From: Patescibacteria group bacterium
GTDB lineage: Bacteria; Patescibacteriota; Microgenomatia; UBA10105; UBA927
Assembly (NCBI GenBank): GCA_035510735.1
Contig: DATKGN010000012.1
Coordinates: forward strand, 9,013 to 73,012
Length of the DNA stretch: 64,000 nucleotides
Direction of reading: 5' to 3'
Part shown: positions 4,049 to 33,810 of the stretch, in pieces
Position numbering within the stretch: position 1 is the stretch's first letter
Layout of the letters: each line of letters opens with the position of its first letter
Made by a program: the position numbers and the translations under genes
The notes under the pieces: generated by a model
Database searches by the model: none
What the model was told of the DNA's origin: nothing
What the model saw: only the letters and a program-made list of their open reading frames with translations

Positions 4049-6820
4049 GTGTTGCTAGGCCCTGAAGTCTCCGTGTGTCTAATCCCCTCATGTCGGGTAG
4101 CGCGTATAATGCGTGAACCCCTCCCGTATTTTTCAGTTGTTTTCGGTCAATTGAAATGCCATAATACAACGGCGGAATTTCCGTCTTTTATGGACCCTGC
4201 CAACGAACCAGCGTGGATAAACGAAACTTCTGCTCTCCCGATAGCGCACATTGACGCCCAGGATGAGAGGCGTGTTATCGCCCTGCGGGAATATCTTGAA
4301 TCGAACGGTTGCCAGGTGGCCGTTAATAAACATCCCGACGGAACCGTTTCATATCATATTGCAGTCGGCGATTATTCGTTTGTGAAATCTATTTTTTCAT
4401 CCGAACCCGACACTGCCGAATTACGACTGTCCATTGTCACCGGTTTATTCCCACCTGACGCGGAGAAGCAGTCGAGAGCATTCGGGAAAATTATTGTCAC
4501 AGATGATGAAGTATTTACCCCGGAAGATGTTGTTGAAATCTTTGCATTTTTCTTTGCGGGAAATGATGCGTTCTATGATAAAAGACGAAACGTACATGAG
4601 CATGCACCCGTTGAGGCGAACTCCGGAGTCGGGATTGAGCCACCGGTAACAGCTGAAGATGTTACACAACAGGTTCCGGTGAAAAAGCAGGAATCATCGC
4701 GAGACGGAATTGCACAACTCTTTGAAAACGCCAGTGATAAAGATCGGATAGGAACTATTATTTCCGATGTATATAAAGAAGACTTGGGAAACGACGAGCC
4801 TTCGCAGGTTGCGAAAAAAAATAAACGGAGAAAACGAAAATTACAAAAAGGCATCGGGTTTGTGATGCTCTTTATTTTTTTCATGATGGTAGTTCCGTTT
4901 ATTTGGTATTTTGTGAGTGTCAGCGCAACACTTGCCTCATTTGCCGAGGAAAGTATCCAGTTGAAACAAAGCAATACGACGATCGCTTCGGAACTAAACG
5001 TTGTCGGACACTATTGGTTACAACAATCACGATTTTCGTTTGGACTAGTCAGTGCCCCTTTTCGAATTTTAGGATTTGATGATGTGGTCCGCGGACAGGA
5101 ACGCCTCATTTCTTTTTTGACGGATATTTCTTCGGCGTTTAGTGATTCATTCACCATAATGAAATACGGAAACTCAGTAGCGACTCAGGTACTGTCAGGG
5201 AATAACTCTCCCAACGCCGGATCGCCGGTTTATGCAATGGATCAATTGCGGTTAACCGTCGAATCGTCAACCGGAACTTTAGGGTTAGCGGAAGCTCAGC
5301 TTTCAACGCTCATGAGGGACGGGACGTTTCCATTCTCAATAGGACTGATCAGTTCAGCGGGTGCACAGGCATTACAGTCACTTGCGACACTTCGAAGTGT
5401 TTTGTCGTATGTCGATCAATTACTCATTTTGTATCCTCAGATTACCGGATTTCGTGGACAAAAAACGTATCTCGTGCTTTTACAAAACAGTAATGAACTT
5501 CGGCCGACCGGGGGATTTATCGGAAGCGTCGGACTTATGCATGTTGAAGATGGTGCGGTCTCTGACTTTACGATTCAGGATGTCTATGCCGTTGACGGAC
5601 AGCTCAAGGGGCACGTCGATCCGCCGGGACCGCTAAAGGACCTTATGAACGCGGAACACTGGTACCTCCGTGACAGTAATTGGAATCCTGATTATTTTGA
5701 AAGCGCAACGCAATCGGCGTGGTTTTATCAGAAAGAAACGGGTGTTACGGTTGATGGCGTTATCGCGCTTAATGTTCCGGTTGTTGTTGATTTACTCAAA
5801 GCAACGGGTCCGATTTATCTCCCTGACTATAACGACCGGATTTCTGCCGATAATTTTTTCGGCAAATCATTTTATTACACACAGCATGATTTTTTCCCCG
5901 GGTCGACGCAAAAGAGCGATTTCCTGGGCACATTATCGAGGGCACTGTTGACGACAATCACTTCTGAAAAAAATATAAATCCGATTCTTATTTTCCGTGC
6001 AATAGCAACCGGTCTTGCAAGAAAAGATATCTTGTTTATGTTTACTGACGCTCCTGTACAACAATTGGTTGAATATTTCGGGTGGGCGGGGAGGATGTTT
6101 CAAACTGAGGGGTGTAGCGGAGTTGATAAAACGTTCTGTGTGTTTGATCCATTTGCAGCTGTCGAAGCAAATGTCGGCGTCAATAAAGTAAATTATTTTA
6201 TAAAACGGTCGGCAAATCGGCAAATTGTTATTGCTCCTGATGGCACGGTTTCCGAATCATATTCGCTGACGCTTCGGAATACGTCAAATGAATCAAATGC
6301 CGGAAAAACAAAAGGTGTCGGCGGGGCGTATCTTTCATATCTGCGGTTTTATATTGCGGGAGACGCACTTGTAAACGATGTCACGCTGGACGGACAACCG
6401 GTCCCGTCGCGTGACCCAAAGCAAAAGATCGCACCCAGAGTGCCTTATATAGAAACAACACAGGCTCCTGAGGGGGCGAGAGGAATTGGCGTTGCGTTTT
6501 CGATAGATCCCGGAGTTGAACGAACCCTGAGGATTTCATACAAACGTTCGACTCGTCTCTCATTCGGTCGTGGTGGCGCGACCCTTGACTTACTATATTA
6601 TAAGCACCCGGGAGTGAGTGATCAGAATTTGTCAACCGTTATACAATACCCGTTGTATTGGGGCGCACAAGATGAGTCTCCCCGGCAAGAAGAAACAGTA
6701 GCAGGAGGCTTTTTGTCGGGCTCATCACAGAGCCCGTCGTTGGTTGCAAAAGAGGGGCAACTCGAGTACAATACGACAATCGTTCAGGATCAGTCAAATC
6801 GCATTCTTTTTTCAAAATGA
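4049..6820 (+). CDS. large membrane-anchored protein with a DUF4012-like C-terminal domain
   Basis: 923-aa ORF with a Lys/Arg-rich segment followed by a TM helix (KKNKRRKRKLQKGIGFVMLFIFFMMVVPFIWYF). The large extracytoplasmic part (LRPTGGFIGSVGLMHVEDGAVSDFTIQDVYAVDGQLKGHVDPPGP...) resembles DUF4012 proteins as I recall them. The true start may be an internal Met (for example 4109). The stop overlaps the rplY start as ATGA. Confidence 0.5.
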   Translation: MLLGPEVSVCLIPSCRVARIMREPLPYFSVVFGQLKCHNTTAEFPSFMDPANEPAWINETSALPIAHIDAQDERRVIALREYLESNGCQVAVNKHPDGTVSYHIAVGDYSFVKSIFSSEPDTAELRLSIVTGLFPPDAEKQSRAFGKIIVTDDEVFTPEDVVEIFAFFFAGNDAFYDKRRNVHEHAPVEANSGVGIEPPVTAEDVTQQVPVKKQESSRDGIAQLFENASDKDRIGTIISDVYKEDLGNDEPSQVAKKNKRRKRKLQKGIGFVMLFIFFMMVVPFIWYFVSVSATLASFAEESIQLKQSNTTIASELNVVGHYWLQQSRFSFGLVSAPFRILGFDDVVRGQERLISFLTDISSAFSDSFTIMKYGNSVATQVLSGNNSPNAGSPVYAMDQLRLTVESSTGTLGLAEAQLSTLMRDGTFPFSIGLISSAGAQALQSLATLRSVLSYVDQLLILYPQITGFRGQKTYLVLLQNSNELRPTGGFIGSVGLMHVEDGAVSDFTIQDVYAVDGQLKGHVDPPGPLKDLMNAEHWYLRDSNWNPDYFESATQSAWFYQKETGVTVDGVIALNVPVVVDLLKATGPIYLPDYNDRISADNFFGKSFYYTQHDFFPGSTQKSDFLGTLSRALLTTITSEKNINPILIFRAIATGLARKDILFMFTDAPVQQLVEYFGWAGRMFQTEGCSGVDKTFCVFDPFAAVEANVGVNKVNYFIKRSANRQIVIAPDGTVSESYSLTLRNTSNESNAGKTKGVGGAYLSYLRFYIAGDALVNDVTLDGQPVPSRDPKQKIAPRVPYIETTQAPEGARGIGVAFSIDPGVERTLRISYKRSTRLSFGRGGATLDLLYYKHPGVSDQNLSTVIQYPLYWGAQDESPRQEETVAGGFLSGSSQSPSLVAKEGQLEYNTTIVQDQSNRILFSK

Positions 6821-24403: not shown

Positions 24404-25264
24404 TTACAACTCATCGAGTTTGACGTTGTCGGGTTTCTGGTCTTTAACGAGCTCGAGATAGCGCTCGGTTGTAGAGAGTCGCTTGTGTCCGACAAGTTTC
24501 GATAGTGTGGTGATTGGCGTTCCCGCCATCAGATGATGGGCGATGAAGGTGTGCCGGAGATCGTTGACCTTCGCGCCTTCAATGCCTGCGATTCGGAAAT
24601 ACCGGTCAATGGCTGTTCTGATATTGCGGATTAAAAGCGGCCGTCCGGTTTTGGTGATAAACAGGGCTTTGCTTTGTCCGGTTGTCCCCCGTACGGTCAA
24701 ATAACGGTCGAGTGCTTCTTTACCTGCTTTATTCAGCGGCACATTTCGCTCTGCGTGTCCCTCCTGGGAGGCAATATGAAGTTCTGTTTCTTTAATATCG
24801 TCAAGCGAAAGGTTGGCAAGTTCGCCAATCCTGAGGCCCGTCTGCAAAAATACTTCAACGATTGCGTAGATACGGACGTCACCCCTGCATGCATCGCGAA
24901 GGGCGCGGTATTCAATTTTGGAAAGAATCCGCGGCGGCTTTACTTCGTATTTGGGATGTTCAATTTCAATTGCCGGATCTGATGTGACGATACCGGCGGC
25001 CTTTAAAAAGCGGAAAAAGGTTTTAATGGAATTGATTTTCCGGGAGATCGACTTGGGAGTATAGCTGTCGCTGGCGAGTTTCTTCAGGAATGCATCAAGT
25101 TCATCCCGGGTAATTTCGTTAATTGTTTTTTTCCCGGTATTTGCCAAAAACAGGGTAAGTTGTTCAATATCTTTGCCGTATGCTACGATGGTAGCGCGAG
25201 CGCGTTTCCGGCTCTCAAGATATTGTGTAAATTGTAGATGAGCGTCTTTTAGTATAACTGACAT
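24404..25264 (-). CDS. xerC: tyrosine site-specific recombinase, XerC/XerD-like
   Basis: 286 aa, N-terminal SAM-like core-binding domain, C-terminal catalytic residues (R...HTFIAH..., LVGHKRLSTTERY). Its length and layout fit Xer-type recombinases rather than integron IntI. Confidence 0.7.
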   Translation of the reverse strand: MSVILKDAHLQFTQYLESRKRARATIVAYGKDIEQLTLFLANTGKKTINEITRDELDAFLKKLASDSYTPKSISRKINSIKTFFRFLKAAGIVTSDPAIEIEHPKYEVKPPRILSKIEYRALRDACRGDVRIYAIVEVFLQTGLRIGELANLSLDDIKETELHIASQEGHAERNVPLNKAGKEALDRYLTVRGTTGQSKALFITKTGRPLLIRNIRTAIDRYFRIAGIEGAKVNDLRHTFIAHHLMAGTPITTLSKLVGHKRLSTTERYLELVKDQKPDNVKLDEL

Positions 25265-25754: not shown

Positions 25755-25860
25755 GGAAGCCCTCCGCATCTTACCGTTCGCCTTTCCAGTACTATTTCCT
25801 TCGGCTTTGCTCAGGATAAACTGTACACGGCTCACGGAGCGATTACTGGAGGGCATTGTT
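25755..25860 (-). ncRNA. ffs: candidate small (4.5S-type) SRP RNA
   Basis: Minus-strand read: ...GCCCUCCAGUAAUCGCUCCGUGAGCCGUGUACAGUUUAUCCUGAGCAAAGCCGAAGGAAAUAGUACUGGAAAGGCGAACGGUAAGAUGCGGAGGGC. The core GUUUAUCCUGAGCAAAGCCGAAGGAAAUAG aligns with the E. coli 4.5S domain IV motif GUUUACCAGGUCAGGUCCGGAAGGAAGCAG. The 5' GCCCUCC and 3' GGAGGGC close the molecule. Length is about 100 nt. Confidence 0.45.
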
Positions 25861-25919
25861 ATTTCTAAACTCTCCTTCTCCGCCAGTTGGCGGATCAGGA
25901 TCGTTAAGAAATATCAATG

Positions 25920-26060: not shown

Positions 26061-26735
26061 TCACTGCCGTTTTAATCCCTCTATCCATCCGTGGATTTTT
26101 CGAAGCAAATCAGTGCTTTTGGATACGCGTATACGAATAACGCCGTGATAGTCCTCCGGATGGTCGTATAGTTTTTTCCATCGGACTTTCTGAAAAAATG
26201 GCTTTTGGAATTGCTCTTTTGAAATTGATAATTGGCTTGCCCAATATGATTCGATATCAGCGACTTTATCTCTATATGCCTCATTGACTCCAACTCGGAG
26301 TTTTAAGCGATCATTGGTAATATTACAGCATTTTTGAAGCCAATTGATAAAAAATTTTGCCATTAACGGGTCTAAATTTGCGAATCCCACTTGATTATCT
26401 TTTTTGAATCCCTCAGCCCAATAGAGGCTAATACCTGAAATAAACAATTCCCGTTCCGTTAGTTGGTCAACGTCGCGAATACCATCTTTTAGAAGCTGTA
26501 GCGTTTTTTCTCGACGTTTCTTTTGTTGGGTTTTTACATACGCAAGTCTTCGGCCGTAATACGGGTCGTGTTGTCGTTTCTCAAGTATGGCAATTTGGGT
26601 TGGCGTAAGTTCAATGTCCTTACACCATTGGCTTACTGTGCTTGAAGAAACATGTAATCTGTAGGCGATCGTTTTTACTCCAAGTCCTCGTTTTCGAAGG
26701 GTTCTGGCTTTTCGTCGCAAGAGTGGTTTGGCCAT
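26061..26735 (-). CDS. HTH-domain protein of unknown function (N-terminal DNA-binding HTH; C-terminal domain with an LxxAEG motif)
   Basis: The N-terminus (LRKRGLGVKTIAYRLHVSSSTVSQWCKDIEL) is a transposase/terminase-like HTH. The remaining 130 aa have no recognisable catalytic motif, though ISGISLYWAEGFKKD is loosely LAGLIDADG-like. It is the first gene after tRNA-Met. Confidence 0.4.
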   Translation of the reverse strand: MAKPLLRRKARTLRKRGLGVKTIAYRLHVSSSTVSQWCKDIELTPTQIAILEKRQHDPYYGRRLAYVKTQQKKRREKTLQLLKDGIRDVDQLTERELFISGISLYWAEGFKKDNQVGFANLDPLMAKFFINWLQKCCNITNDRLKLRVGVNEAYRDKVADIESYWASQLSISKEQFQKPFFQKVRWKKLYDHPEDYHGVIRIRVSKSTDLLRKIHGWIEGLKRQ

Positions 26736-26780: not shown

Positions 26781-26879
26781 GTAGGTTGACGCAGTGACGA
26801 AAGATAAAGTATAATCTCTATGTTCTTTAATGAACCGCGGGGTAGTGTAGAGTAGCACAGAAGGCTCAAGTATGGGCTG

Positions 26880-26896
26880 TCTTGAAATTTTCAAGA
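26880..26896. promoter_or_regulatory. 17-bp perfect palindrome TCTTGAAA-T-TTTCAAGA (candidate operator) in a 390-nt noncoding leader
   Basis: Seen directly in the sequence; about 145 nt upstream of the HTH gene start, inside the 26736-27124 region that has no convincing ORF. Confidence 0.3.
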
Positions 26897-27084
26897 TAGA
26901 ATTTGGCTGTATCGGTGAAGTCCCAACATATAGTGGATAATACCGAGGCAATCTCTGATGAATATTGGAGCGAGTCCGTAGAGACTATACGCCAAATCCG
27001 TCGACCGACGGAATGATATAGTCCGACACTCTCAGGAATGGGAGATAACAGGAAAGCATAATCTTCTAGACCAGGCGCGCCTCC

Positions 27085-27115
27085 TGGCCCCGCAACATAC
27101 TCTAGTTTAGAGCGT
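27085..27115 (-). repeat. cassette-boundary element, copy 0 (partial: CCCCGCAACATAC...TTTAGAGCG), 10-40 nt 3' of the MFS gene stop
   Basis: Shares the CCCGCAACATA core and downstream TAGAGCG with the copies at 28394, 29516, 30341 and 31086. Confidence 0.4.
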
Positions 27116-27124
27116 ACAAACTCT

Positions 27125-28345
27125 CTATTCAATAGAACTATCAACCAAATGTGATTCATCAATCCGGAAAAATAATGCCCCGGCGATTATACATATTCCC
27201 ATTAATATAAATGCTATTGGGATAGACCGATCTGCTAGGGCGCCAATAACAGGACCCATGACGGCCACATAGAAACTGGAAAGCATCGCAATAAACGATA
27301 ACAGCGTGGCTCTGGTTTCACTTGGTATATGCCTATTCGTATAGTCAATAAAGAGTGGATTTTGAAAAGCTGCCGATCCGTAGTTAAGACAGAAGAACGT
27401 AATTGCCAGCCAGGGACTACTCGTTATTGCCATAAGTCCAAAGAAAATTCCCGGTAACAAAGTAAAAATAAGCAACGCAGTTTTACCTCCTAATTTCTTT
27501 TCTATGAAATACGCGTATTTTGAAGACAGGAGAACGAATGAGCCACCGATGGCATAGGCTAACCCAAACCATTGGCCTTGAATGTGGAGGTTTAGAAAAT
27601 ACGGCTGATATAGGCTAATAAGATATGCCGTAAACGGTGTGGTAAATATTGCTAATACCACTAATCGACTCAATTTTCGATTTTGTTTCAATAGTGAAAT
27701 ACTTTTTGATAACAATTCTTTGGGCGAAAGTTTATGGGTAATTTCTAATCTTTGTGGTTCTTTGATAAATAAGCTTATTAGTAAAGCGATACCCACGCTC
27801 CCGATTGTTAAGAGTATTGCAAGAATAAATCTGCTTGTGACTAATTGAGCTACAATGAAGCTACTTACCCCTGCGCCAAGAATCGTAGATAATCCTTTAT
27901 ACGCCATAATAGACCCCATCGTTTTTTGAGTCTCATTTTGTCTGTTGTTTTCTTTGAGAGAATCAATAATAAGCGCATCAAAAGCACCGCTCCAAAAGGA
28001 AAATCCCAGCCCAGCAGCAATAGCGCAGAGAATAAACATCGGAAAAGAGTTGCTAAACAAAAAGATCGCTTCTCCTAAAAGTTGCAAAATTAAGGCCATG
28101 ACGATTGCTGATTTACGACCATACTTATCTGCAAACATACCTGTAAAAACAGTGGTAAGAACTAAAGTTATTGTTCCAATGCCATTTAGTGATTCAATCT
28201 GAGTGAGACTTAATCCGTGATTTTGATACCATAATGTGGCAATCGGAAGATAAAAGTAGAGCGCTGAAAAGAAGTTAATCAGCGTAGCTTTTGTGATGTT
28301 GTCCCATGTTATGTGGACCAATGATAGTCTATTTGCCATACGCAT
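27125..28345 (-). CDS. MFS transporter
   Basis: 406 aa, 12 TM helices, MFS signature-like G-x-x-x-D-K-x-G-R-K (FADKYGRKSAIV) in loop 2-3. Confidence 0.7.
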   Translation of the reverse strand: MRMANRLSLVHITWDNITKATLINFFSALYFYLPIATLWYQNHGLSLTQIESLNGIGTITLVLTTVFTGMFADKYGRKSAIVMALILQLLGEAIFLFSNSFPMFILCAIAAGLGFSFWSGAFDALIIDSLKENNRQNETQKTMGSIMAYKGLSTILGAGVSSFIVAQLVTSRFILAILLTIGSVGIALLISLFIKEPQRLEITHKLSPKELLSKSISLLKQNRKLSRLVVLAIFTTPFTAYLISLYQPYFLNLHIQGQWFGLAYAIGGSFVLLSSKYAYFIEKKLGGKTALLIFTLLPGIFFGLMAITSSPWLAITFFCLNYGSAAFQNPLFIDYTNRHIPSETRATLLSFIAMLSSFYVAVMGPVIGALADRSIPIAFILMGICIIAGALFFRIDESHLVDSSIE

Positions 28346-28393
28346 ATTCTCTCATAATTCTGAAGGTAATGGCATTAAAGAGGGCTGACGGAG

Positions 28394-28430
28394 GAATAGG
28401 TTCTAAGTTCTTGTAACCCTCGCAACATAG
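28394..28430 (-). repeat. cassette-boundary element, copy 1: AATAGGTTCTAAGTTCTTGTAACCCTCGCAACATAGG (plus-strand read)
   Basis: About 37-nt conserved element between gene A (stop 28625) and the MFS gene (start 28345); a GCTGAC box lies just upstream on the plus strand. Confidence 0.55.
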
Positions 28431-28624
28431 GCCAAATTTTCCGTCATACGGGGCTGTATTAGTTTTTCTTCGTTCTATGAATCAGTGTCCCAGCTTCCAT
28501 ACGTAGTCTAAGGAGATCACGCGAACTAATCTTTCTTTAAACTGTTTCAAAGATTCTTTAAGAAATCTTAGATAGATCAAATAGATTGCTGCTGAGAGGT
28601 TTTTTGAATAAGAATTATCTATAC

Positions 28625-29353
28625 TTATCCTGTTTGCAATAGATATGAATCGTGAAGTTTGACGTAAGCTTCATTGAGATTAGTTTTAAATTGTTCGGGA
28701 TCGGTAGGTAATGAATACTGGGTGGGATTTGGATAAAATACTAAATTATCAACGCCACTCTCTTCAAGTTTATACGCATTTTTTAGGTGTTTATATTCAT
28801 AGTATATATTTGCATGTACCCAATGGTTATTTGCTAGATTGATGCCGTAAGATTCATAATTTGGATCATCATAATGATGTAAGGTTACCAAAAGGCTGTC
28901 TGATAGCATTTCGGGGCGACCCGCTTCTTTATGTGAACTAACACCTCCGCCCTGACTCATGCCTGTTCCAGGATAGGAAACATTGTCGACAACAGTTACT
29001 AAAGGTCTTCCCTTCCAAGTTTTGTATGTAAAAGCGAATTGCAGGTGAACAGTTGCTGAATCTATGGAATGATTGGTTGTGACAGTGTCTTTTTTAATAG
29101 GGTTGCCGATAATATCCGCGATTTTTTGAAATCGTTGTTGTACACCAAAAACATCATTAAATTCCACAAGTTTTGCAATTTCTAATTGAACTTTTTTATC
29201 TCGCACTGCAAGTCTGGAAATTTCATCCTGCTGTTTTGCTAATAATTGCTGTTGTTCAGAAAGTGTTAGATTGGTTTTTGATACTGCTTTTGCATCCCTC
29301 AGTTCTTTAGGTCTTCCTTGAAGGCGTTTGGCTAAATCTTCTAAGTCGTTCAT
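28625..29353 (-). CDS. hypothetical protein A (coiled-coil N-terminus, Tyr/His-rich C-terminal domain)
   Basis: 242-aa ORF with good coding periodicity and no recognisable family; C-terminal HHYDDPNYESYGINLANNHWVHANIYYEYKH; AT-rich. Confidence 0.5.
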   Translation of the reverse strand: MNDLEDLAKRLQGRPKELRDAKAVSKTNLTLSEQQQLLAKQQDEISRLAVRDKKVQLEIAKLVEFNDVFGVQQRFQKIADIIGNPIKKDTVTTNHSIDSATVHLQFAFTYKTWKGRPLVTVVDNVSYPGTGMSQGGGVSSHKEAGRPEMLSDSLLVTLHHYDDPNYESYGINLANNHWVHANIYYEYKHLKNAYKLEESGVDNLVFYPNPTQYSLPTDPEQFKTNLNEAYVKLHDSYLLQTG

Positions 29354-29515
29354 ATAGATTATTCTGACAGGCTAATTATAGCACGTAAGGTAAAATTTTT
29401 CGTGCTACATAACAGTTAACATTTTTCCGTATAAAACTGCTGGAATAGGAGATGCTGACCCGTCTTATGATTTGAACAACAGTCGGATAACCATACTATG
29501 CCTACAAAGATATGT

Positions 29516-29556
29516 AATAGGTTCTAAGTTCTTGTAAACCCGCAAAAAATATAAGG
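29516..29556 (-). repeat. cassette-boundary element, copy 2: AATAGGTTCTAAGTTCTTGTAAACCCGCAAAAAATATAAGG
   Basis: 38-74 nt 3' of gene B's stop and about 165 nt 5' of gene A's start; the downstream TAGAGCG is shared with copy 0. Confidence 0.55.
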
Positions 29557-29594
29557 ATAGAGCGTCTATATGTTCTATTTATTATTTTGATTTT

Positions 29595-30257
29595 TTACTC
29601 TGATTCTTGAGCGACAACATTGGCTCTGGGGAAAATTTCGTGAGTTGGTGAGTAGTCATCAGAAATAAAACCAACTTTCAGCATTGAGCGAACAGCATCT
29701 AATTGATTTTTTTCTCCCTGTTCAGCGAGGATCACTGCGGCCTCAATTGCCGCACCAGTAAACCAACCTCCTGCTATTTCCTGCTCTTTATTCGTATTTG
29801 GAATACCTAATGTAATAGCTGTGAATCTTCCCCAAAAATCCCACAGATACCAACGAAACACGTCTGGCGGATTACCATTGTTGATCAAGTTAGGCTTCCG
29901 ATATATAGTGCCGGTTTCTTTGTTGCCGGTTTTAATGAGCTCCATCAGTGCCTGTGTCCAGCGCTGCCGTTCAGGGCGATTGGTGTAAGCAAAGGGGATA
30001 GGAAGTTCGAGGGCATCTTTCGTTGTTAGTATTGTATGAGCCTGGTTAACGGCAGCCAGTCCTTGAGTGTGATTACCTGATTTGAGAAGAAGATTAACTT
30101 TTTGTACTGATTTGCTGAGGGTTGTAATTTCTCGAAAGAGAAGTCCTTCTGTAGAGATAACAGTGCTGATAGCCTCTTGTAGTTGTAAACCCTCATCCGC
30201 GAGGTAGCGTGTAATACCTCGAAAGGTCACCTCAAGTCTTTGTTCCTGCGAAATCAT
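29595..30257 (-). CDS. hypothetical protein B
   Basis: 220-aa ORF with no recognisable family (…PDVFRWYLWDFWGRFTAITLGIPNTNKEQEIAGGWFTGAAIEAAV…). A TGcTATAAT extended -10 lies 6 nt upstream of the ATG, suggesting a near-leaderless mRNA. Confidence 0.5.
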   Translation of the reverse strand: MISQEQRLEVTFRGITRYLADEGLQLQEAISTVISTEGLLFREITTLSKSVQKVNLLLKSGNHTQGLAAVNQAHTILTTKDALELPIPFAYTNRPERQRWTQALMELIKTGNKETGTIYRKPNLINNGNPPDVFRWYLWDFWGRFTAITLGIPNTNKEQEIAGGWFTGAAIEAAVILAEQGEKNQLDAVRSMLKVGFISDDYSPTHEIFPRANVVAQESE

Positions 30258-30340
30258 GGTCGGATTATAGCATGGGGAGCGTCCTTATGATCAATGTTGC
30301 CAATCTATCATTCTGTAATATGATTGATAGTTGGAAAGAT

Positions 30341-30376
30341 AGTAGGTTCTAAATTCTTGTTGCCCCGCAACATAGG
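30341..30376 (-). repeat. cassette-boundary element, copy 3: AGTAGGTTCTAAATTCTTGTTGCCCCGCAACATAGG
   Basis: 21-58 nt 3' of gene C's stop and about 85 nt 5' of gene B's start; GTTGC-CCC-GCAAC forms a perfect 5-bp hairpin in this copy. Confidence 0.55.
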
Positions 30377-30400
30377 TGATTTGGAGCTTATTGTGAGTAT

Positions 30401-31177
30401 TTACAAAGCGTTAACAAGGGCTTTGATCGCTTCTGAAAAGTCAGAAATTTCTATATCTTTATAGATCCAACCAATCTCGTCCATGCCTGTTGCGTACGAA
30501 CATTCGTGATAGCGAGATGGTTTGGTTAAGACGGCGTTGATAGGGTTTTCTCCGACTTGTGTGCCAAATGATTGTAAATAGTCATTCAGGGAATGTATTT
30601 CTTTCGCAATATACTTGGTTTGCGGAGGGCTATTTGAGATTGCAATGATGGTTCCGGAAAAACCCATGAATCGCAGTAATATTGCAAAATGAGTTGCATT
30701 TGGATGATAAAGATCATCTGGCATTACACCGCTTACGGACCAATTGCCTCGGTCTGGTTTTTTTATCGGTTCAAACGCAACCCCGCGCTTTTGTGCAATA
30801 AGTGACAGCATATTTTCTGTTGGCTTCCAATCGCCCCAATTTGTTTCATATTTGTTGTCTAATACCACGACATCGGCCGCGCGGTCCATTAACCCCAACG
30901 CCTTTACCATAAGATCATCCCCGCTGGCTGCGGTGAGTATTTCAGGCTGTGCCAGAGAAGGAGATGCTTGAAGAACGGAGCTCCAAGCTTGACTTGTCCA
31001 AGCAGCGGATCCTTCTTCATCATCTGCAATAACCACCCGTATACTTCCAGGTACCTCGCTTGATTTTAGTGACTCAAAATTCATAGTTTTGTAATCCCCC
31101 GCAACAAAATTAGTTTGGCTATTTCCAAACAAATGATACGTTATATTATTTTTTCCCCATTGCCTGATAATCGTCAA
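30401..31177 (-). CDS. hypothetical protein C (possibly an SGNH/GDSL-like hydrolase fold)
   Basis: 258 aa. A C-terminal D-x-x-H-P block (PDDLYHPNATH) resembles SGNH block V, and an N-terminal VVIADDEEGS block may correspond to block I; the similarity is weak. The first 31 codons overlap the sulfatase 3' end; an alternative start at 31084 (MNFESLK), preceded by GGGGGA, avoids the overlap. Confidence 0.45.
   Translation of the reverse strand: MTIIRQWGKNNITYHLFGNSQTNFVAGDYKTMNFESLKSSEVPGSIRVVIADDEEGSAAWTSQAWSSVLQASPSLAQPEILTAASGDDLMVKALGLMDRAADVVVLDNKYETNWGDWKPTENMLSLIAQKRGVAFEPIKKPDRGNWSVSGVMPDDLYHPNATHFAILLRFMGFSGTIIAISNSPPQTKYIAKEIHSLNDYLQSFGTQVGENPINAVLTKPSRYHECSYATGMDEIGWIYKDIEISDFSEAIKALVNAL
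31086..31110 (-). repeat. cassette-boundary element, copy 4 (TTTGTAATCCCCCGCAACAAAAT), 36-60 nt 3' of the sulfatase stop
   Basis: Same YTTGTAAYCCCCGCAACA core. It overlaps the SD/5' end of gene C depending on the start choice. Confidence 0.45.
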
Positions 31178-32687
31178 AAAGCGTACGCGCGATGTCCAGA
31201 TGTGAAAACAGAACGTTATTTTGTTCTCCCGGGTCTTTTTGAATATCGTAGAGCTCAGTAGGGAGCCATTGATTATCCTTTGGGTATAAAAATAATTTCC
31301 AGTTGCCGCGACGCAAGGTTCTATTTAACTCAACATCGCCATCCGCAACGAGGATGCGGTCGGGGAGAGGTGTACCGCCGATTGCAGGCACAAGGCTTAA
31401 TCCCTGATACGTATTGTGGGTTTTTATGCCGACGATATCGAGAATCGTCGGGAGTAAATCGACGGATTGTACGTTTGCATCGATCGTTTTTTTTGCCGTG
31501 TTTGGAATGTACATAATAAGCGGAATTCTGATATTGGAGTCGTAGGTGGTTGCATGTTCTATTTGTCCATGCTCCATAAATTCCTCTCCGTGATCGGCAG
31601 TTATGATGACGATGGTGTTGTCGCGTACTGTTTTGTCCTGCAAAAATGCGAGAAGGTTTGCAATCCGGGATGTGTCCATTTCATGAATCCGCTGATCATA
31701 TAAGGCTCGGAGATAATCAACGTTAGTAGAATTTTTCGTATCAATATGCTCTCTATATAGAATGCTGTAACTGTAATATGCGGAAATCGGTTTAGTATCA
31801 ATGGGATCTTCCATTTGGGCTTTTTGAATGATATTTCGCATCTTGTCGTAGTCTCCGGGATACTTTTTTAAATCGTTAACAAGAGCGGTGAGCGTTTTTG
31901 CTTCTCCAGGGCCAAGATTGTGTTTTTGTACATCATCTGGTATCTGCTGGATAAGAAAATTAATAACATCATTGGTCATTACCCTGAGCTCACTGTGTTT
32001 TGTCGGGATTGTGGGAACGATGGTTTTCGCATAAAGGAACGGGCGGTCATCAATAAGATACGGCGCATGGACGTCATACGTGTGGAGAAATAAAAACGTT
32101 TTTTTTCCGTTTTCAACATTCGTTTTGAAATCAGTAAGGGCGCTGTCCCATGAAATCGTATCCTCGTTATATATTTCATCAATGCCGCGGTTATAGACAG
32201 AGTAGATTGGAAGCGTATTGTCATTGATTCCCATAAGGAACGATGTTGTATAGCCATTGTCTTTCAATATTTGCGGAAGAAACGGAACGCTACGGCTGAG
32301 GTAATTGCTCTCATCAATCACGCCGTGCGTGTACGGATATAATCCCGTGAAAATTGAAACATGGCTCGGAAGCGTCCATGTGGCGTTTGAGTACATATGA
32401 CTGAAGAAGATGCTATTTTTTGCAAGTAGACAAAGATTAGGTGCCGTGTCACGGGAATATCCGTAACAAGGGAGATGGTTGGCGCTTAATGTGTCGAGTG
32501 ATACCAGAATGATATTGCAATGCACACATAGTGGTTTTGGAGCTTGAAAATGGGCCACAATCTGTGTATGAAATCTAATAATGAGGAATAAAAAAAGGAT
32601 TATTTCAACACCAGTGAGTATCCACAAAAATTTTTGGTATTTGCGTGAAAGCCGCATATTTTTTATGCTAGTAGATAATGGGTCCAT
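31146..32687 (-). CDS. sulfatase-family protein (LTA synthase/arylsulfatase-like) with an N-terminal TM anchor
   Basis: ILVSLDTLSANHLPCYGYSRDTAPNL...SNATWTLPSHVSIFTGLYPYTHGV...TADHGEEF matches the sulfatase metal-binding core. A Cys in the CxxxR-like position is not obvious, so it may be LtaS/EptA-like rather than a true arylsulfatase. Confidence 0.65.
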   Translation of the reverse strand: MDPLSTSIKNMRLSRKYQKFLWILTGVEIILFLFLIIRFHTQIVAHFQAPKPLCVHCNIILVSLDTLSANHLPCYGYSRDTAPNLCLLAKNSIFFSHMYSNATWTLPSHVSIFTGLYPYTHGVIDESNYLSRSVPFLPQILKDNGYTTSFLMGINDNTLPIYSVYNRGIDEIYNEDTISWDSALTDFKTNVENGKKTFLFLHTYDVHAPYLIDDRPFLYAKTIVPTIPTKHSELRVMTNDVINFLIQQIPDDVQKHNLGPGEAKTLTALVNDLKKYPGDYDKMRNIIQKAQMEDPIDTKPISAYYSYSILYREHIDTKNSTNVDYLRALYDQRIHEMDTSRIANLLAFLQDKTVRDNTIVIITADHGEEFMEHGQIEHATTYDSNIRIPLIMYIPNTAKKTIDANVQSVDLLPTILDIVGIKTHNTYQGLSLVPAIGGTPLPDRILVADGDVELNRTLRRGNWKLFLYPKDNQWLPTELYDIQKDPGEQNNVLFSHLDIARTLFDDYQAMGKK

Positions 32688-33316: not shown

Positions 33317-33333
33317 CGTTGAAATGCGATAAT
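33305..33333 (+). promoter_or_regulatory. strong sigma70-like promoter (TTGACT - 17 nt - GATAAT) overlapping the stop of the preceding gene
   Basis: TTGACT at 33305-33310 and GATAAT at 33328-33333, with no ORF downstream for about 480 nt. Confidence 0.45.
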
Positions 33334-33339
33334 CTATTT

Positions 33340-33505
33340 TAGTTGAATCAAACGCGCTGATCCGGATGGTTGGAACCGGGGAGCGGCACAAAAGTATGTG
33401 ACGGAGGCGAAACCGTAAAAGGCTGCAACATATGTCGCATAAGCGGAGTATGTCATGAATGAGGTTACCTCATTATTTTGACGAACTCCCCGCAAGGGGA
33501 TTTTT
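33340..33505 (+). ncRNA. candidate small RNA of about 165 nt, bounded by the promoter above and tandem intrinsic terminators
   Basis: Predicted TSS near 33340. An AATGAGG-TTA-CCTCATT hairpin plus U-tract lies at about 33460-33480, and a UCCCC-GCAA-GGGGA hairpin plus UUUUUU at 33486-33505. Internal GC-rich helices are present and no ORF exceeds 8 codons. Confidence 0.35.
33486..33505 (+). terminator. Rho-independent terminator (CTCCCC-GCAA-GGGGA + T6)
   Basis: Seen directly in the sequence. Confidence 0.5.
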
Positions 33506-33710
33506 TGATGGCTCGTTAACGAATGAATTCGTATTCGTGAGTTTATGAGCCGATCAATCCTCCTAACGTCGCTCCTTGAGCCGCGCTACGAATAGTAGGG
33601 CGGCCCGCAATGCTTCGCAATGCGAGGCGGACGGGTAAAGCGAAAGGGAAGATGGGGAGGGTGTAGGTCAAAGTGAGTTAACGAATCAAGGTGGCACAGT
33701 CCCGGAGTGG

Positions 33711-33766
33711 GCCCTTGGAGATTTCTTTTGTCGTGGCGGCAAAAGAAGTTTGCAAGGGCTTTTTTG
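33711..33766 (+). terminator. long imperfect hairpin (GCCCTTG...TTTCTTTTG...CAAAAGAA...CAAGGGC) followed by T6; terminator or attenuator before the next CDS
   Basis: Seen in the sequence; it closes a second structured GC-rich noncoding stretch (33516-33766). Confidence 0.35.
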
Positions 33767-33810
33767 TGTTTATGCGAGCCTGTTGTTACGTATTTAATAA
33801 GGATAAATAT

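What the first reader, a model, noticed from the sequence alone, without database searches (positions are those of the whole stretch)
27085..32687. Cassette-array-like arrangement: five unrelated same-strand genes, each followed by a conserved ~35-nt boundary element
Five consecutive minus-strand genes (MFS transporter, three family-less proteins A/B/C, sulfatase) share no protein similarity. Yet each is followed 10-190 nt after its stop by the same element. Its plus-strand consensus is AATAGGTTCTAAGTTCTTGTAACCC(T)CGCAACATAGG, equal to minus-sense CCTATGTTGCG(A)GGGTTACAAGAACTTAGAACCTATT. Copies are at 27085-27115 (partial), 28394-28430, 29516-29556, 30341-30376 and 31086-31110 (half). Flanking short boxes (GCTGAC, CTTATGA, TAGAGCG) are also shared between copies. 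Conserved intergenic sites between non-homologous ORFs in one orientation are the hallmark of a site-specific cassette array, as with integron attC sites or other recombinase-driven shufflons. The region is AT-rich (about 38-40% GC against about 48% for core genes) and begins right after a tRNA-Met and a tyrosine recombinase. The element also contains a tandem heptamer AGAACTT-AGAACCT, so it could alternatively be a regulator-binding site shared by a co-regulated regulon. Neither a cassette system of this form nor this motif is something I recognise.
Basis: seen in the sequence. Interest (0 to 1): 0.72.

Follow-up and report, generated by a model that had tools for sequence, protein, structure and literature searches.

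The report
Gene cassettes stacked behind initiator tRNA
Four unrelated single genes sit in a row directly behind a hidden, intron-split initiator tRNA gene of a Gottesmanbacteria (CPR) genome, each closed by the same 20-base element end fused to a copy of the tRNA's last bases, which is the footprint of repeated site-specific insertion of small mobile DNA pieces.

Summary
The repeat is real and far beyond chance. There are three strong copies and one decayed copy.

The fifth "partial copy" (27085-27115) is the true 3' end of an initiator tRNA-fMet gene on the + strand (26836-27097). tRNA finders miss this gene because a group I intron splits it at position 33/34.

Read in the tRNA's sense, the motif has two parts. 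The first is a 20-nt block, TAGGTTCTAAGTTCTTGTAA. The second is a duplicate of the tRNA's last 9-14 nt (CCCCGCAACA...), usually followed by a terminator hairpin.

The same composite site lies downstream of tRNA-fMet, on the same strand, in other Patescibacteria. There it bounds quite different cargo. Close relatives with conserved flanks carry one different cassette, or none and then no motif.

In one relative (L047) the segment between the tRNA and the motif begins with a large serine recombinase gene that ends inside the tRNA.

I read the array as tandem, recombinase-less integrative cassettes accreted at a tRNA gene, with the newest next to the tRNA. This is the architecture of the Dehalococcoides ssrA islands. 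It is not an integron, not dif, and not an operator.

The cassette idea is supported. The attC analogy, the gene-to-element pairing and the role of the neighbouring Xer gene are not. This is a new member of a known kind, of moderate interest.

The parts
26836..26866 (+). tRNA-fMet (initiator-type, anticodon CAU), exon 1, ending at U33
   Evidence: Exact match to the 5' part of ARAGORN-called CPR tRNA-Met(CAU) genes. Exons 1+2 are 71/71 identical to the uninterrupted gene of L027 and 70/71 to that of L029. There is a C1 x A72 mismatch.
26867..27056 (+). Group I intron (190 nt, no ORF) inserted at tRNA position 33/34
   Evidence: Rfam RF00028: 48.7 bits (gathering score 50), E 2e-10. The orthologous intron in L031 scores 57.6 bits. 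The intron follows a U and ends in G. Position 33/34 is the site reported as common for tRNA-fMet introns (PMC13011429).
27057..27097 (+). tRNA-fMet exon 2. Its last bases, CCCCGCAACA (27088-27097), are the sequence repeated at every cassette boundary.
27098..28396 (.). Cassette 1, newest and tRNA-proximal: own hairpin (27100-27126) plus the MFS transporter gene 27125-28345 (-)
   Evidence: Pfam MFS_1 1e-29. Absent from sister genome L027. It is inserted between the tRNA 3' end and the native terminator.
28397..28431 (+). Boundary copy 1: block 1 TAGGTTCTAAGTTCTTGTAA (28397-28416) plus tRNA-end repeat CCCTCGCAACATAGG
   Evidence: profile E 8e-11; coordinates
28432..28465 (+). Relic of the native tRNA-fMet terminator (CCGTCATACGGGGCT), displaced from the tRNA by cassette 1
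   Evidence: Aligns with the sequence directly after tRNA-fMet in L027 and L024 (alignment A3)
28466..29517 (.). Cassette 2: orphan gene A, 28625-29353 (-)
   Evidence: No Pfam, NCBIfam, PHROG or PADLOC hit. The only homologue is 38% identical and lies at another locus of the sister MAG.
29518..29551 (+). Boundary copy 2: perfect block 1 plus decayed tRNA-end repeat ACCCGCAAAAAATA, followed by hairpin ATAGAGCGTCTAT
   Evidence: Profile E 4.6e-9
29552..30342 (.). Cassette 3: orphan gene B, 29595-30257 (-)
30343..30376 (+). Boundary copy 3: block 1 with 3 mismatches plus exact tRNA-end repeat CCCCGCAACATAGG
   Evidence: Profile E 4.3e-8
30377..31077 (.). Cassette 4, oldest: orphan gene C, 30401-31084 (-). 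Its ATG lies inside the decayed block 1.
   Evidence: Called as 227 aa in public contigs
31078..31108 (+). Boundary copy 4, decayed: AATTCATAGTTTTGTAA-TC plus exact CCCCGCAACAAA, abutting the sulfatase terminator
   Evidence: Same position as the good copy of L027 (8234-8202), next to the shared flank TTTTTCCCCATTGCC. The profile hit alone is not significant (E 1.6).
31146..32687 (-). Sulfatase gene. It is conserved distal flank of the array in the sister genome, not shown to be a cassette.
   Evidence: 84% identical in L027 at the same place. L017 has a 47% identical sulfatase next to a motif copy.
26061..26735 (-). HTH + LAGLIDADG-like protein gene, 100 nt upstream of and divergent from tRNA-fMet. 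Its presence is variable. It is a candidate free-standing homing endonuclease; a link to the cassettes is unproven.
24404..25264 (-). Xer-type tyrosine recombinase. It is core synteny with DivIC, tRNA-Met and tRNA-fMet, and is not shown to act on the array.
   Evidence: XerC, XerD and XerA models score about 150-164 bits; the IntI model scores 69.5 bits against a cutoff of 265. It occupies the same place in relatives with and without cassettes.

Best explanation
**What it is.** The region is a tandem array of four small, recombinase-less integrative cassettes: MFS, A, B and C. They accreted at the 3' end of the initiator tRNA gene (tRNA-fMet, + strand, split by a group I intron).

**The boundary.** Each cassette ends, on the side away from the tRNA, with a conserved 20-nt element arm (block 1). 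The arm is fused to a duplicate of the last 9-14 nt of the tRNA gene and is usually followed by a tRNA-type terminator hairpin. This is an attR-type junction: element arm + common core + former tRNA flank.

**How cassettes enter.** Insertion is Campbell-type, at the core inside the tRNA 3' end. The incoming DNA restores the tRNA end and supplies a terminator. Earlier cassettes are pushed outward, where their sites decay.

**The recombinase.** It is not in the cassettes and acts in trans. The best candidate (inferred, about 0.35-0.4) is a large serine recombinase family found at this same tRNA in relatives. Under that reading block 1 would be the P half-site of its attP. Recombinase-less cassettes would be left behind when the recombinase module excises at a proximal attR. 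They could be co-mobilised when excision uses a distal attR (accretion-mobilisation, CIME-like).

**Shown versus inferred.**
- Shown: the anatomy, the tRNA anchoring, the cross-lineage conservation of the site, the presence/absence polymorphism, and the recombinase-bearing version.
- Inferred: the recombination chemistry, the enzyme, and current mobility.
For: 1. **The site ends in the tRNA's own 3' end.** The motif ends with the exact 3' end of tRNA-fMet and has the tRNA's polarity.
2. **Co-orientation in other genomes.** In 7 of 9 independent loci with enough upstream sequence, tRNA-fMet lies co-oriented upstream of the motif: 0.5-1.5 kb in L016, L018, L019, L024 and L027, 1.3-4 kb in the window, and 1.7 kb in L041.
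3. **Same site, different cargo.** Cargo includes GNAT, methyltransferase, Bax1-I, GIY-YIG, Fic and orphans, in either orientation. Records are titled Jorgensenbacteria, Gottesmanbacteria and Patescibacteria.
4. **Relatives with conserved flanks differ.**
   - L027 (Xer 97%, PALP 91%, sulfatase 84%) has one different 240-aa cassette plus one motif.
   - L041 has GIY-YIG and a 363-aa gene.
   - L031/L032, L033 and L042/L043 have tRNA-fMet plus a terminator, no extra genes and no motif.
5. **Insertion point of the newest cassette.** The native tRNA-fMet terminator of L027 and L024 is found in the window after boundary copy 1. So the MFS cassette plus block 1 was inserted exactly between the tRNA end and its terminator.
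6. **Age gradient.** Block 1 matches run 20/20, 20/20, 17/20 and about 12/18 going outward. GC runs 0.387, 0.362, 0.423 and 0.437. L016 and L018 also have decayed distal copies.
7. **Longer repeats elsewhere.** In L019 the repeat extends about 48 nt, covering the tRNA end plus terminator.
8. **A recombinase-bearing version.** In L047 a perfect 11-nt repeat GCCCCGCAACA occurs only at the tRNA end and at the motif. It bounds 6.2 kb whose tRNA-proximal gene is a 576-aa large serine recombinase. The last codons of that gene are read from the opposite strand of the tRNA. L029 has a 63% identical recombinase in the same position.
9. **A described precedent.** The same architecture is published for Dehalococcoides ssrA islands (PMC3146451).
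Against: - No cassette-borne recombinase was found in the window or in most loci.
- No circular form or empty/occupied polymorphism was seen within the window's own population. All 14 contigs are syntenic.
- The serine-recombinase link rests on one clear locus (L047). L029 has only a truncated block 1, 9 kb from the tRNA, and no motif at the end of its recombinase module.
- Sequences following the tRNA in recombinase-less arrays share no conserved P' arm with the recombinase-bearing loci.
- The P/P' inverted symmetry is weak.
- Searches of viral contigs for the site and for recombinase relatives found nothing.
- L017 and L023 carry motif copies with no tRNA-fMet inside the fetched 3.6-6 kb upstream.
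Confidence: 0.6

Rival explanations
1. Homology- or homing-driven cassette exchange. Cassettes move between genomes by homologous recombination after DNA uptake or a double-strand break. The ultra-conserved tRNA-fMet gene serves as one homology anchor and block 1 plus hairpin as the other. The adjacent HTH-LAGLIDADG protein would bind or cleave the 20-bp pseudo-palindromic block 1 (GGTTCTAAG-TT-CTTGTAACC).
For: - A LAGLIDADG-like fold with invariant LYWAEG lies next to tRNA-fMet in the window, L041 and L047, and upstream of tRNA-Met in L019.
- Block 1 is 7/10 pseudo-palindromic, similar to homodimeric LAGLIDADG targets (my own inspection and general knowledge).
- Three copies (L016, L021, L026) carry an extra inverted AGAACTTAG just upstream.
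- All three sequence-checked genomes with the HTH gene outside the window also have the motif.
Against: - The motif is present without the HTH gene in L027, L024, L018 and L016.
- Homologous replacement does not by itself create a direct repeat of the tRNA end at each boundary.
- The palindrome is not significant after allowing for all possible centres (my estimate is p of about 0.05-0.1).
- The protein more simply fits a free-standing homing endonuclease serving the ORF-less intron.
Confidence: 0.15
2. Xer/dif-type system. The motif is the chromosome's dif-like site for the neighbouring single Xer recombinase. The cassettes are IMEX-like elements that integrated at dif and multiplied the site.
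For: - Xer lies 1.6 kb from the tRNA, and this neighbourhood is conserved.
- Xer is unusually conserved: 85-97% identity where LeuRS is 52-86%.
- Single-Xer systems with an adjacent dif are known for XerS/difSL (my own knowledge).
Against: - The motif is absent from relatives that keep the same Xer gene: L031/L032, L033 and L042/L043.
- There are no 11-6-11 inverted arms.
- Cumulative GC skew rises monotonically through the region, so this is not a terminus.
- The site contains the tRNA 3' end and follows the tRNA's polarity.
Confidence: 0.05
3. Integron-like platform with attC-type folded sites.
For: Unrelated single genes are separated by a shared site, a tyrosine recombinase lies nearby, and the newest cassette appears proximal.
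Against: - No ssDNA hairpin forms on either strand.
- The IntI model scores 69.5 bits against a cutoff of 265, while the Xer models score 150-164 bits.
- Cargo orientation is not fixed across loci.
- The site is half tRNA gene.
Confidence: 0.02
4. Shared regulatory or insulator module. The motif is an operator, promoter or terminator unit of a co-regulated gene set. It has stops in all three frames in the tRNA sense, followed by a terminator.
For: - A tandem heptamer AGGTTCT-AAGTTCT is present.
- Stops TAG, TAA and TAA fall in three frames.
- A hairpin with a T-run follows most copies.
- Some cargo ORFs use the motif's stop codons (L016, L022).
Against: - The distance to downstream start codons ranges from 0 to 163 nt. 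Genes A and B have their own TGnTATAAT box next to the ATG.
- Orientation relative to cargo varies between loci.
- The element is absent from relatives with no extra genes.
- The included tRNA 3' end has no regulatory rationale.
Confidence: 0.05

Closest known systems
Dehalococcoides ssrA-specific genomic islands (McMurdie et al. 2011, PMC3146451)
   Same: - Tandem islands lie directly downstream of a single-copy t(m)RNA gene.
- Each is bounded by a direct repeat of the gene's 3' end.
- A short conserved element-derived motif sits immediately upstream of the repeat and does not align with the gene itself.
- A serine recombinase of about 540 aa lies on the reverse strand next to attL in some islands, while many islands lack any integration module and are interpreted as cis-mobilisable.
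- L047 reproduces this layout.
   Different: - The target is the initiator tRNA gene, not tmRNA.
- The host is Patescibacteria.
- Units are mostly single genes of 0.7-1.3 kb rather than multi-gene islands.
- The arm is conserved across records titled as different CPR groups.
- The recombinase link is seen clearly in only one locus here.
Cis-mobilisable elements and accretion-mobilisation at tRNA or fda sites (Streptococcus ICESt3/CIME; reviewed in PMC5704250)
   Same: Integrase-less elements are flanked by att sites, stacked in tandem with an integrase-bearing element, and mobilised in cis or trans (my own knowledge; the term appears).
   Different: No conjugation or mobilisation genes are present here, and no experimental excision has been shown.
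Integron cassette arrays (IntI, attI, attC)
   Same: Single-gene units of unrelated function are separated by a shared site. The newest unit appears proximal to the fixed site, and distal sites decay.
   Different: - The site is not a folded attC.
- There is no IntI.
- The fixed site is a tRNA gene end.
- Cargo orientation is free.
SCCmec and pseudo-SCC composite islands at the 3' end of rlmH (my own knowledge)
   Same: Tandem elements, some without recombinase genes, are separated by direct repeats that contain the 3' end of the target gene. Serine recombinases (Ccr) act on them.
   Different: The target there is a protein-coding gene, the elements are much larger, and the lineage is different.
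Group I intron at position 33/34 of bacterial tRNA-fMet (PMC13011429)
   Same: Same insertion site. The intron follows a U and ends in G. It is ORF-less and occurs in Patescibacteria.
   Different: This is only the anchor of the array, not the cassette system itself.

Membership tests
Integron | IntI-type integrase (with the IntI-specific insertion) adjacent to the array | tested here: not met
   NCBIfam integron integrase TIGR02249 scores 69.5 bits (cutoff 265). XerC, XerD and XerA models score 150-164 bits.
Integron | attC sites: imperfect inverted repeats that fold as single-stranded DNA | tested here: not met
   Three copies folded on both strands gave MFE -0.8 to -4.9 kcal/mol and z from +1.5 to -1.45 against shuffles.
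Integron | Cassette ORFs co-oriented, with the site at the ORF 3' end | tested here: not met
   In the window the cargo is antisense to the site's polarity. In L016, L018, L019, L022, L026, L027 and L041 it is sense.
tDNA-specific integrative islands in tandem (ssrA-GI / CIME type) | Array starts at the 3' end of a t(m)RNA gene and shares its polarity | tested here: met
   Window 27088-27097 onward. The same holds in L016, L018, L019, L024, L027, L041 and L047.
tDNA-specific integrative islands in tandem (ssrA-GI / CIME type) | Direct repeat of the gene's 3' end at each distal boundary | tested here: met
   9-14 nt in the window, a perfect 11 nt in L047, and about 48 nt in L019.
tDNA-specific integrative islands in tandem (ssrA-GI / CIME type) | Presence/absence and content polymorphism between relatives with conserved flanks | tested here: met
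   Window compared with L027, L031, L033, L041 and L042.
tDNA-specific integrative islands in tandem (ssrA-GI / CIME type) | A site-specific recombinase encoded at attL in at least some members | tested here: inconclusive
   Large serine recombinase genes end inside tRNA-fMet in L047 and L029. L047's segment ends at the motif. L029's does not.
tDNA-specific integrative islands in tandem (ssrA-GI / CIME type) | Excision to a circular form, with attB restored | not testable with these tools
   This needs raw reads or experiments. All 14 contigs of the same population are syntenic.
Xer/dif (and IMEX) | Site present wherever the Xer gene is present | tested here: not met
   L031/L032, L033 and L042/L043 keep Xer (85-90% identical) but have no motif at up to 5 mismatches or by profile search.
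Xer/dif (and IMEX) | Two inverted arms of about 11 bp around a 6-8 bp spacer; located at the replication terminus | tested here: not met
   The only dyad has 7/9 matching arms with a 2-nt spacer (inspection). Cumulative GC skew rises monotonically across the window.
Group I intron in tRNA-fMet | Match to the group I covariance model, and exons that join to a tRNA | tested here: met
   48.7 bits, E 2e-10, just under the gathering score of 50. The orthologue in L031 scores 57.6 bits. The joined exons are 71/71 identical to L027's intronless gene. ARAGORN does not call the joined sequence because of its odd T-loop.
LAGLIDADG homing endonuclease (protein 26061-26735) | LAGLIDADG fold with a conserved acidic residue at the end of the motif helix | tested here: inconclusive

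The most novel reading that the evidence does not exclude
Patescibacteria possess an integron-like gene-capture platform. The initiator tRNA gene end acts as the fixed acceptor site. A resident, chromosomally encoded enzyme captures and shuffles single-gene cassettes through a composite site of about 35-70 nt (block 1 + tRNA end + hairpin). That enzyme would be the conserved neighbouring Xer-type recombinase or the HTH-LAGLIDADG protein. Under this reading the cassettes are not passive remnants of serine-recombinase elements. This would be a dedicated horizontal gene-acquisition organ in organisms with minimal genomes.
Probability: 0.15. Interest if true: 0.8.

Novelty: new member of a known kind. 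Interest (0 to 1): 0.5.

Why it matters
**Gene acquisition in CPR bacteria.** How ultra-small CPR bacteria acquire genes is poorly known. This locus gives a concrete, searchable signature: tRNA-fMet followed by TAGGTTCTAAGTTCTTGTAA-CCCCGCAAC. The signature marks recently acquired genes across Patescibacteria. It defines an integration hotspot in an essential gene. It also points to a candidate serine recombinase and att pair that could be tested as a genetic tool for these organisms.

**Annotation.** The initiator tRNA is missed by standard tools. ARAGORN and the Rfam tRNA model at gathering threshold miss the intron-split gene in the window. They also miss the intronless gene of L027. As a result, islands anchored on this tRNA are invisible to tRNA-based island finders.

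**Limits.** If the cassettes are only dead remnants, the interest is limited to comparative genomics.

Tried and rejected
**Readings of the motif that failed**
- Sigma-70 or ECF promoter. There is no consistent -35/-10 spacing, and A and B have their own TGnTATAAT next to the ATG.
- An RNA gene. Rfam has no match at any threshold other than the tRNA and the intron. The site is less structured than shuffles.
- A degenerate tRNA-Met fragment in the spacers (the TCATAAG and GTCAGC boxes). This similarity was not reproducible across copies.
- A primer-binding-site-like complement of the mature tRNA 3' end. The repeats follow the gene's genomic flank (CAACATAGG, plus terminator) rather than CCA, so they derive from DNA.
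- dif (see rivals).

**Searches that found nothing useful**
- Viral contig scans for the site: 0 hits for the 20-mer and for the block1-core pattern. Two hits for an 18-mer fall inside a phage ORF at 34% GC without the tRNA part and are judged chance.
- Relatives of the serine recombinase in viral contigs: none.
- Homologue of gene A as a test of cassette mobility. The only homologue (38%) lies at an unrelated locus without the motif.
- Strain-level polymorphism through exact-protein look-ups of A, B and Xer: one arrangement only.
- Metagenome hit L025 is a chance match inside a coding region of a brine contig.
- A repeat of the tRNA end at the distal end of the L029 recombinase module: none found.

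Full report
**1.

The region 27-32.7 kb carries five minus-strand genes: an MFS transporter, three proteins without any family hit (A, B, C) and a sulfatase. None resembles another.

A shared element lies between them.
- The 22-nt left part occurs twice exactly, with 0 expected by chance.
- The repeat finder reports a three-copy family at 28394, 29515 and 30340.
- A profile built from 17 copies in many genomes scores the three window copies at E 8e-11 to 4e-8. It finds nothing else in the 64 kb except a weak hit at 31088.
- The array is present in 14 independent public contigs of the same population.

**2. The hidden anchor**

An Rfam scan at E-value threshold found a group I intron at 26857-27045 on the + strand, with 48.7 bits and E 2e-10. 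Its flanks are the two halves of a CPR-type initiator tRNA.
- Exon 1: 26836-26866.
- Intron: 26867-27056.
- Exon 2: 27057-27097.

The joined exons are 71/71 identical to the uninterrupted gene of the sister genome L027. They are 70/71 identical to an ARAGORN-called tRNA-Met(CAU) in L029. The gene has the C1 x A72 mismatch of bacterial initiators. The intron sits at 33/34, the position reported as common for tRNA-fMet introns in bacteria (PMC13011429).

**3. Anatomy of the motif**

Read on the + strand, in the tRNA's sense, each copy has three parts.
- Block 1: TAGGTTCTAAGTTCTTGTAA, preceded by a loose AGATAA.
- A spacer of 0-2 nt.
- CCCCGCAAC(A/C)(A), which is the last bases of tRNA-fMet.

Most copies are followed by a hairpin with a T-run, as are the tRNA-fMet genes themselves. 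The site is not self-complementary and folds no better than shuffled sequence on either strand. In the tRNA sense it carries stop codons in all three frames.

**4. The site is not private to this genome**

One scan of 185,579 species genomes and one scan of JGI metagenomes, with stringent patterns, returned 12 loci. One (L025) is a chance match inside a coding region. The record titles name Jorgensenbacteria, Gottesmanbacteria, 'Patescibacteria group' and two MAGs labelled Gammaproteobacteria. Those two carry the CPR-type tRNA-fMet, so the label is probably wrong.

Wherever enough upstream sequence was available, tRNA-fMet lies on the same strand upstream of the motif: 0.5-1.5 kb in L016, L018/L020, L019 and L024. 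The later-fetched L027, L041 and L047 behave the same way. L017 and L023 are the exceptions within the fetched range.

The genes enclosed are different each time, and they lie in either orientation.
- GNAT acetyltransferases
- an NNMT-like methyltransferase
- Bax1-I
- GIY-YIG plus a small ORF
- Fic
- orphan proteins

Several loci hold arrays with decayed distal copies: L016 has three units; L018, L022, L017 and L041 have two.

**5. Relatives with the same flanks differ in content**

Homologues of the neighbouring Xer gene identify the organism as Ca. Gottesmanbacteria. They also gave contexts at graded distance. All share Xer, DivIC, tRNA-Met and tRNA-fMet, and most have LeuRS next to Xer.

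| Locus | Xer identity to window | Content downstream of tRNA-fMet | Motif |
|---|---|---|---|
| Window | (reference) | MFS, A, B, C | 3 strong + 1 decayed |
| L027 | 97% | one unrelated 240-aa gene | 1 copy, abutting the same sulfatase 3' end |
| L041 | 89% | GIY-YIG cassette, then a 363-aa gene | 1 copy + 1 decayed boundary |
| L031/L032 | 90% | terminator, then core genes | none |
| L033 | 89% | core genes directly | none |
| L042/L043 | 85% | terminator, then core genes | none |

- L027 also shares PALP at 91% and the sulfatase at 84%. Its tRNA-fMet has no intron, and it has no HTH, MFS, A, B or C gene.
- The motif was sought at up to 5 mismatches and by profile in the empty-site genomes.

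So the motif comes and goes with the extra genes. That excludes a constitutive host site such as dif.

**6. Where and in what order insertion happened**

The terminator that directly follows tRNA-fMet in L027 and L024 is (A/T)(G/T)CCCGTT(T/C)ATACGGGCT. In the window it is found after boundary copy 1 (28432-28465). The window's tRNA is followed by a different hairpin (alignment A3).

Hence the MFS gene together with block 1 was inserted exactly between the tRNA end and its native terminator. Block 1 belongs with the gene on its tRNA-proximal side.

Two gradients point the same way going outward.
- Block 1 matches: 20/20, 20/20, 17/20 and about 12/18.
- GC content: 0.387, 0.362, 0.423 and 0.437.

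Both fit proximal insertion with distal ageing. In L019 the repeat extends over about 48 nt, covering the tRNA end plus terminator. This shows that the duplicated segment is gene DNA, not mature tRNA.

**7. A recombinase-bearing version**

L047 comes from a Gottesmanbacteria contig of 1.02 Mb. There the exact 11-mer GCCCCGCAACA occurs only at the tRNA-fMet end and at a good motif copy 6.2 kb downstream.

The first gene of that segment is a 576-aa large serine recombinase with Resolvase and Recombinase domains. It lies on the opposite strand. Its last ten codons (LLRGLESHQV) are read from the complement of the tRNA 3' end.

L029 has a 63% identical recombinase in the same position. It has only a truncated block 1, 9 kb away, and no repeat at the end of its module.

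This layout matches the one described for Dehalococcoides ssrA islands (PMC3146451).
- A serine recombinase lies next to attL.
- The islands stand in tandem.
- The boundary repeat is 20 bp, preceded by a conserved 15-bp element-derived motif.
- Many islands have no integration module and are interpreted as cis-mobilisable.

On this reading block 1 is the P half-site of attP. Its length of 20-25 bp beside the common core is what large serine recombinase half-sites require (my own knowledge). The window's four units are then recombinase-less derivatives. Excision between attL and the nearest attR would remove the recombinase module and leave the cargo bounded by block 1 + core. This step is inferred.

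**8. Other neighbours**

The 286-aa tyrosine recombinase scores as a generic XerC/XerD/XerA and far below the integron-integrase cutoff. It is core synteny whether or not cassettes are present.

The HTH protein at 26061-26735 belongs to a family of 386 CPR proteins.
- LYWAEGFKKD is invariant.
- The gene is variably present.
- In the window, L041 and L047 it sits within about 100 nt of an intron-containing tRNA-fMet.

This suggests a free-standing homing endonuclease partnered with the ORF-less intron. A role at block 1 cannot be excluded and is kept as a rival.

**9. Verdict**

The finding is real. Its core idea, a cassette array bounded by recombination sites, is supported by comparative evidence. 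The mechanism is best filed with tandem tDNA-specific integrative elements rather than integrons.

I found no description of this tRNA-fMet system in the searchable literature. The kind is nevertheless well known.

Unresolved points:
- which enzyme acts on the site;
- whether the window's cassettes are still mobile;
- why block 1 is so strongly conserved across lineages.

Noticed in passing
window 26836-27097 (+): The initiator tRNA-fMet gene is split by a 190-nt ORF-less group I intron at position 33/34. ARAGORN and the Rfam tRNA model at gathering threshold both miss it. The CPR initiator has a non-canonical T-loop (CGCGCCT here, CGCGACT or TGCGACT elsewhere, with no T54-Psi55-C56). Even the spliced or intronless form is not called by ARAGORN.
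   Followed up: yes
window 26061-26735 (-): An HTH + LAGLIDADG-like protein belongs to a family of 386 CPR proteins of about 225 aa. It is variably present. In the window, L041 and L047 it lies within about 100 nt of an intron-containing tRNA-fMet. It may be a free-standing homing endonuclease cooperating with the ORF-less intron.
   Followed up: partly
window 25755-25862, between DivIC and tRNA-Met: A GC-clamped element of about 95 nt (GCCCTCC...GGAGGGC) folds far better than shuffles on the minus strand (-39.6 kcal/mol, z -4.06). It has a recognisable homologue in L018 (about 5830-5930), directly after that locus's motif terminator. Rfam has no match for it. It may be an undescribed small RNA.
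   Followed up: partly
L016 450-557 and L019 2272-2170: A leader of about 105 nt lies directly upstream of tRNA-fMet. It begins with a duplicate of the tRNA's first 13 nt (CGCGGGGTAGTGT), followed by conserved hairpins. It is present in two MAGs labelled Gammaproteobacteria that otherwise look like CPR.
   Followed up: no
window 24404-25264 (-), compared with L023, L027, L029, L031, L033, L041, L042: The Xer-type recombinase is 85-97% identical across genomes whose LeuRS is only 52-86% identical and whose DivIC is 36-84% identical. This is unusual conservation for a recombinase.
   Followed up: no
L029 7431-9176 and L047 7947-9677: Large serine recombinase ORFs terminate inside the tRNA-fMet gene on the opposite strand. 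Their C-terminal residues LLRG(L/Q)ES..V are encoded by the tRNA's acceptor and T-stem. The protein's tail would therefore change on excision.
   Followed up: partly
window 33317-33810 (+): A long untranslated leader lies ahead of the gene that precedes the PALP enzyme. It includes a 23-nt-arm hairpin followed by a T-run (33711-33765). A similar leader with a GGTGGTACC-type box occurs in L033. It looks like a riboswitch or T-box leader, but Rfam reports nothing at gathering threshold.
   Followed up: no
window 29354-29400 and 30258-30275 (- strand): Genes A and B have extended -10 boxes (TGCTATAAT) ending 21 nt and only 6 nt before their ATG, with no Shine-Dalgarno sequence. Gene B is probably leaderless.
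   Followed up: no
L016 685-1209 and 1848-2372: Two paralogous GNAT genes occupy the first and third cassettes of one array, each followed by its own boundary site. This points to cassette duplication within an array.
   Followed up: no
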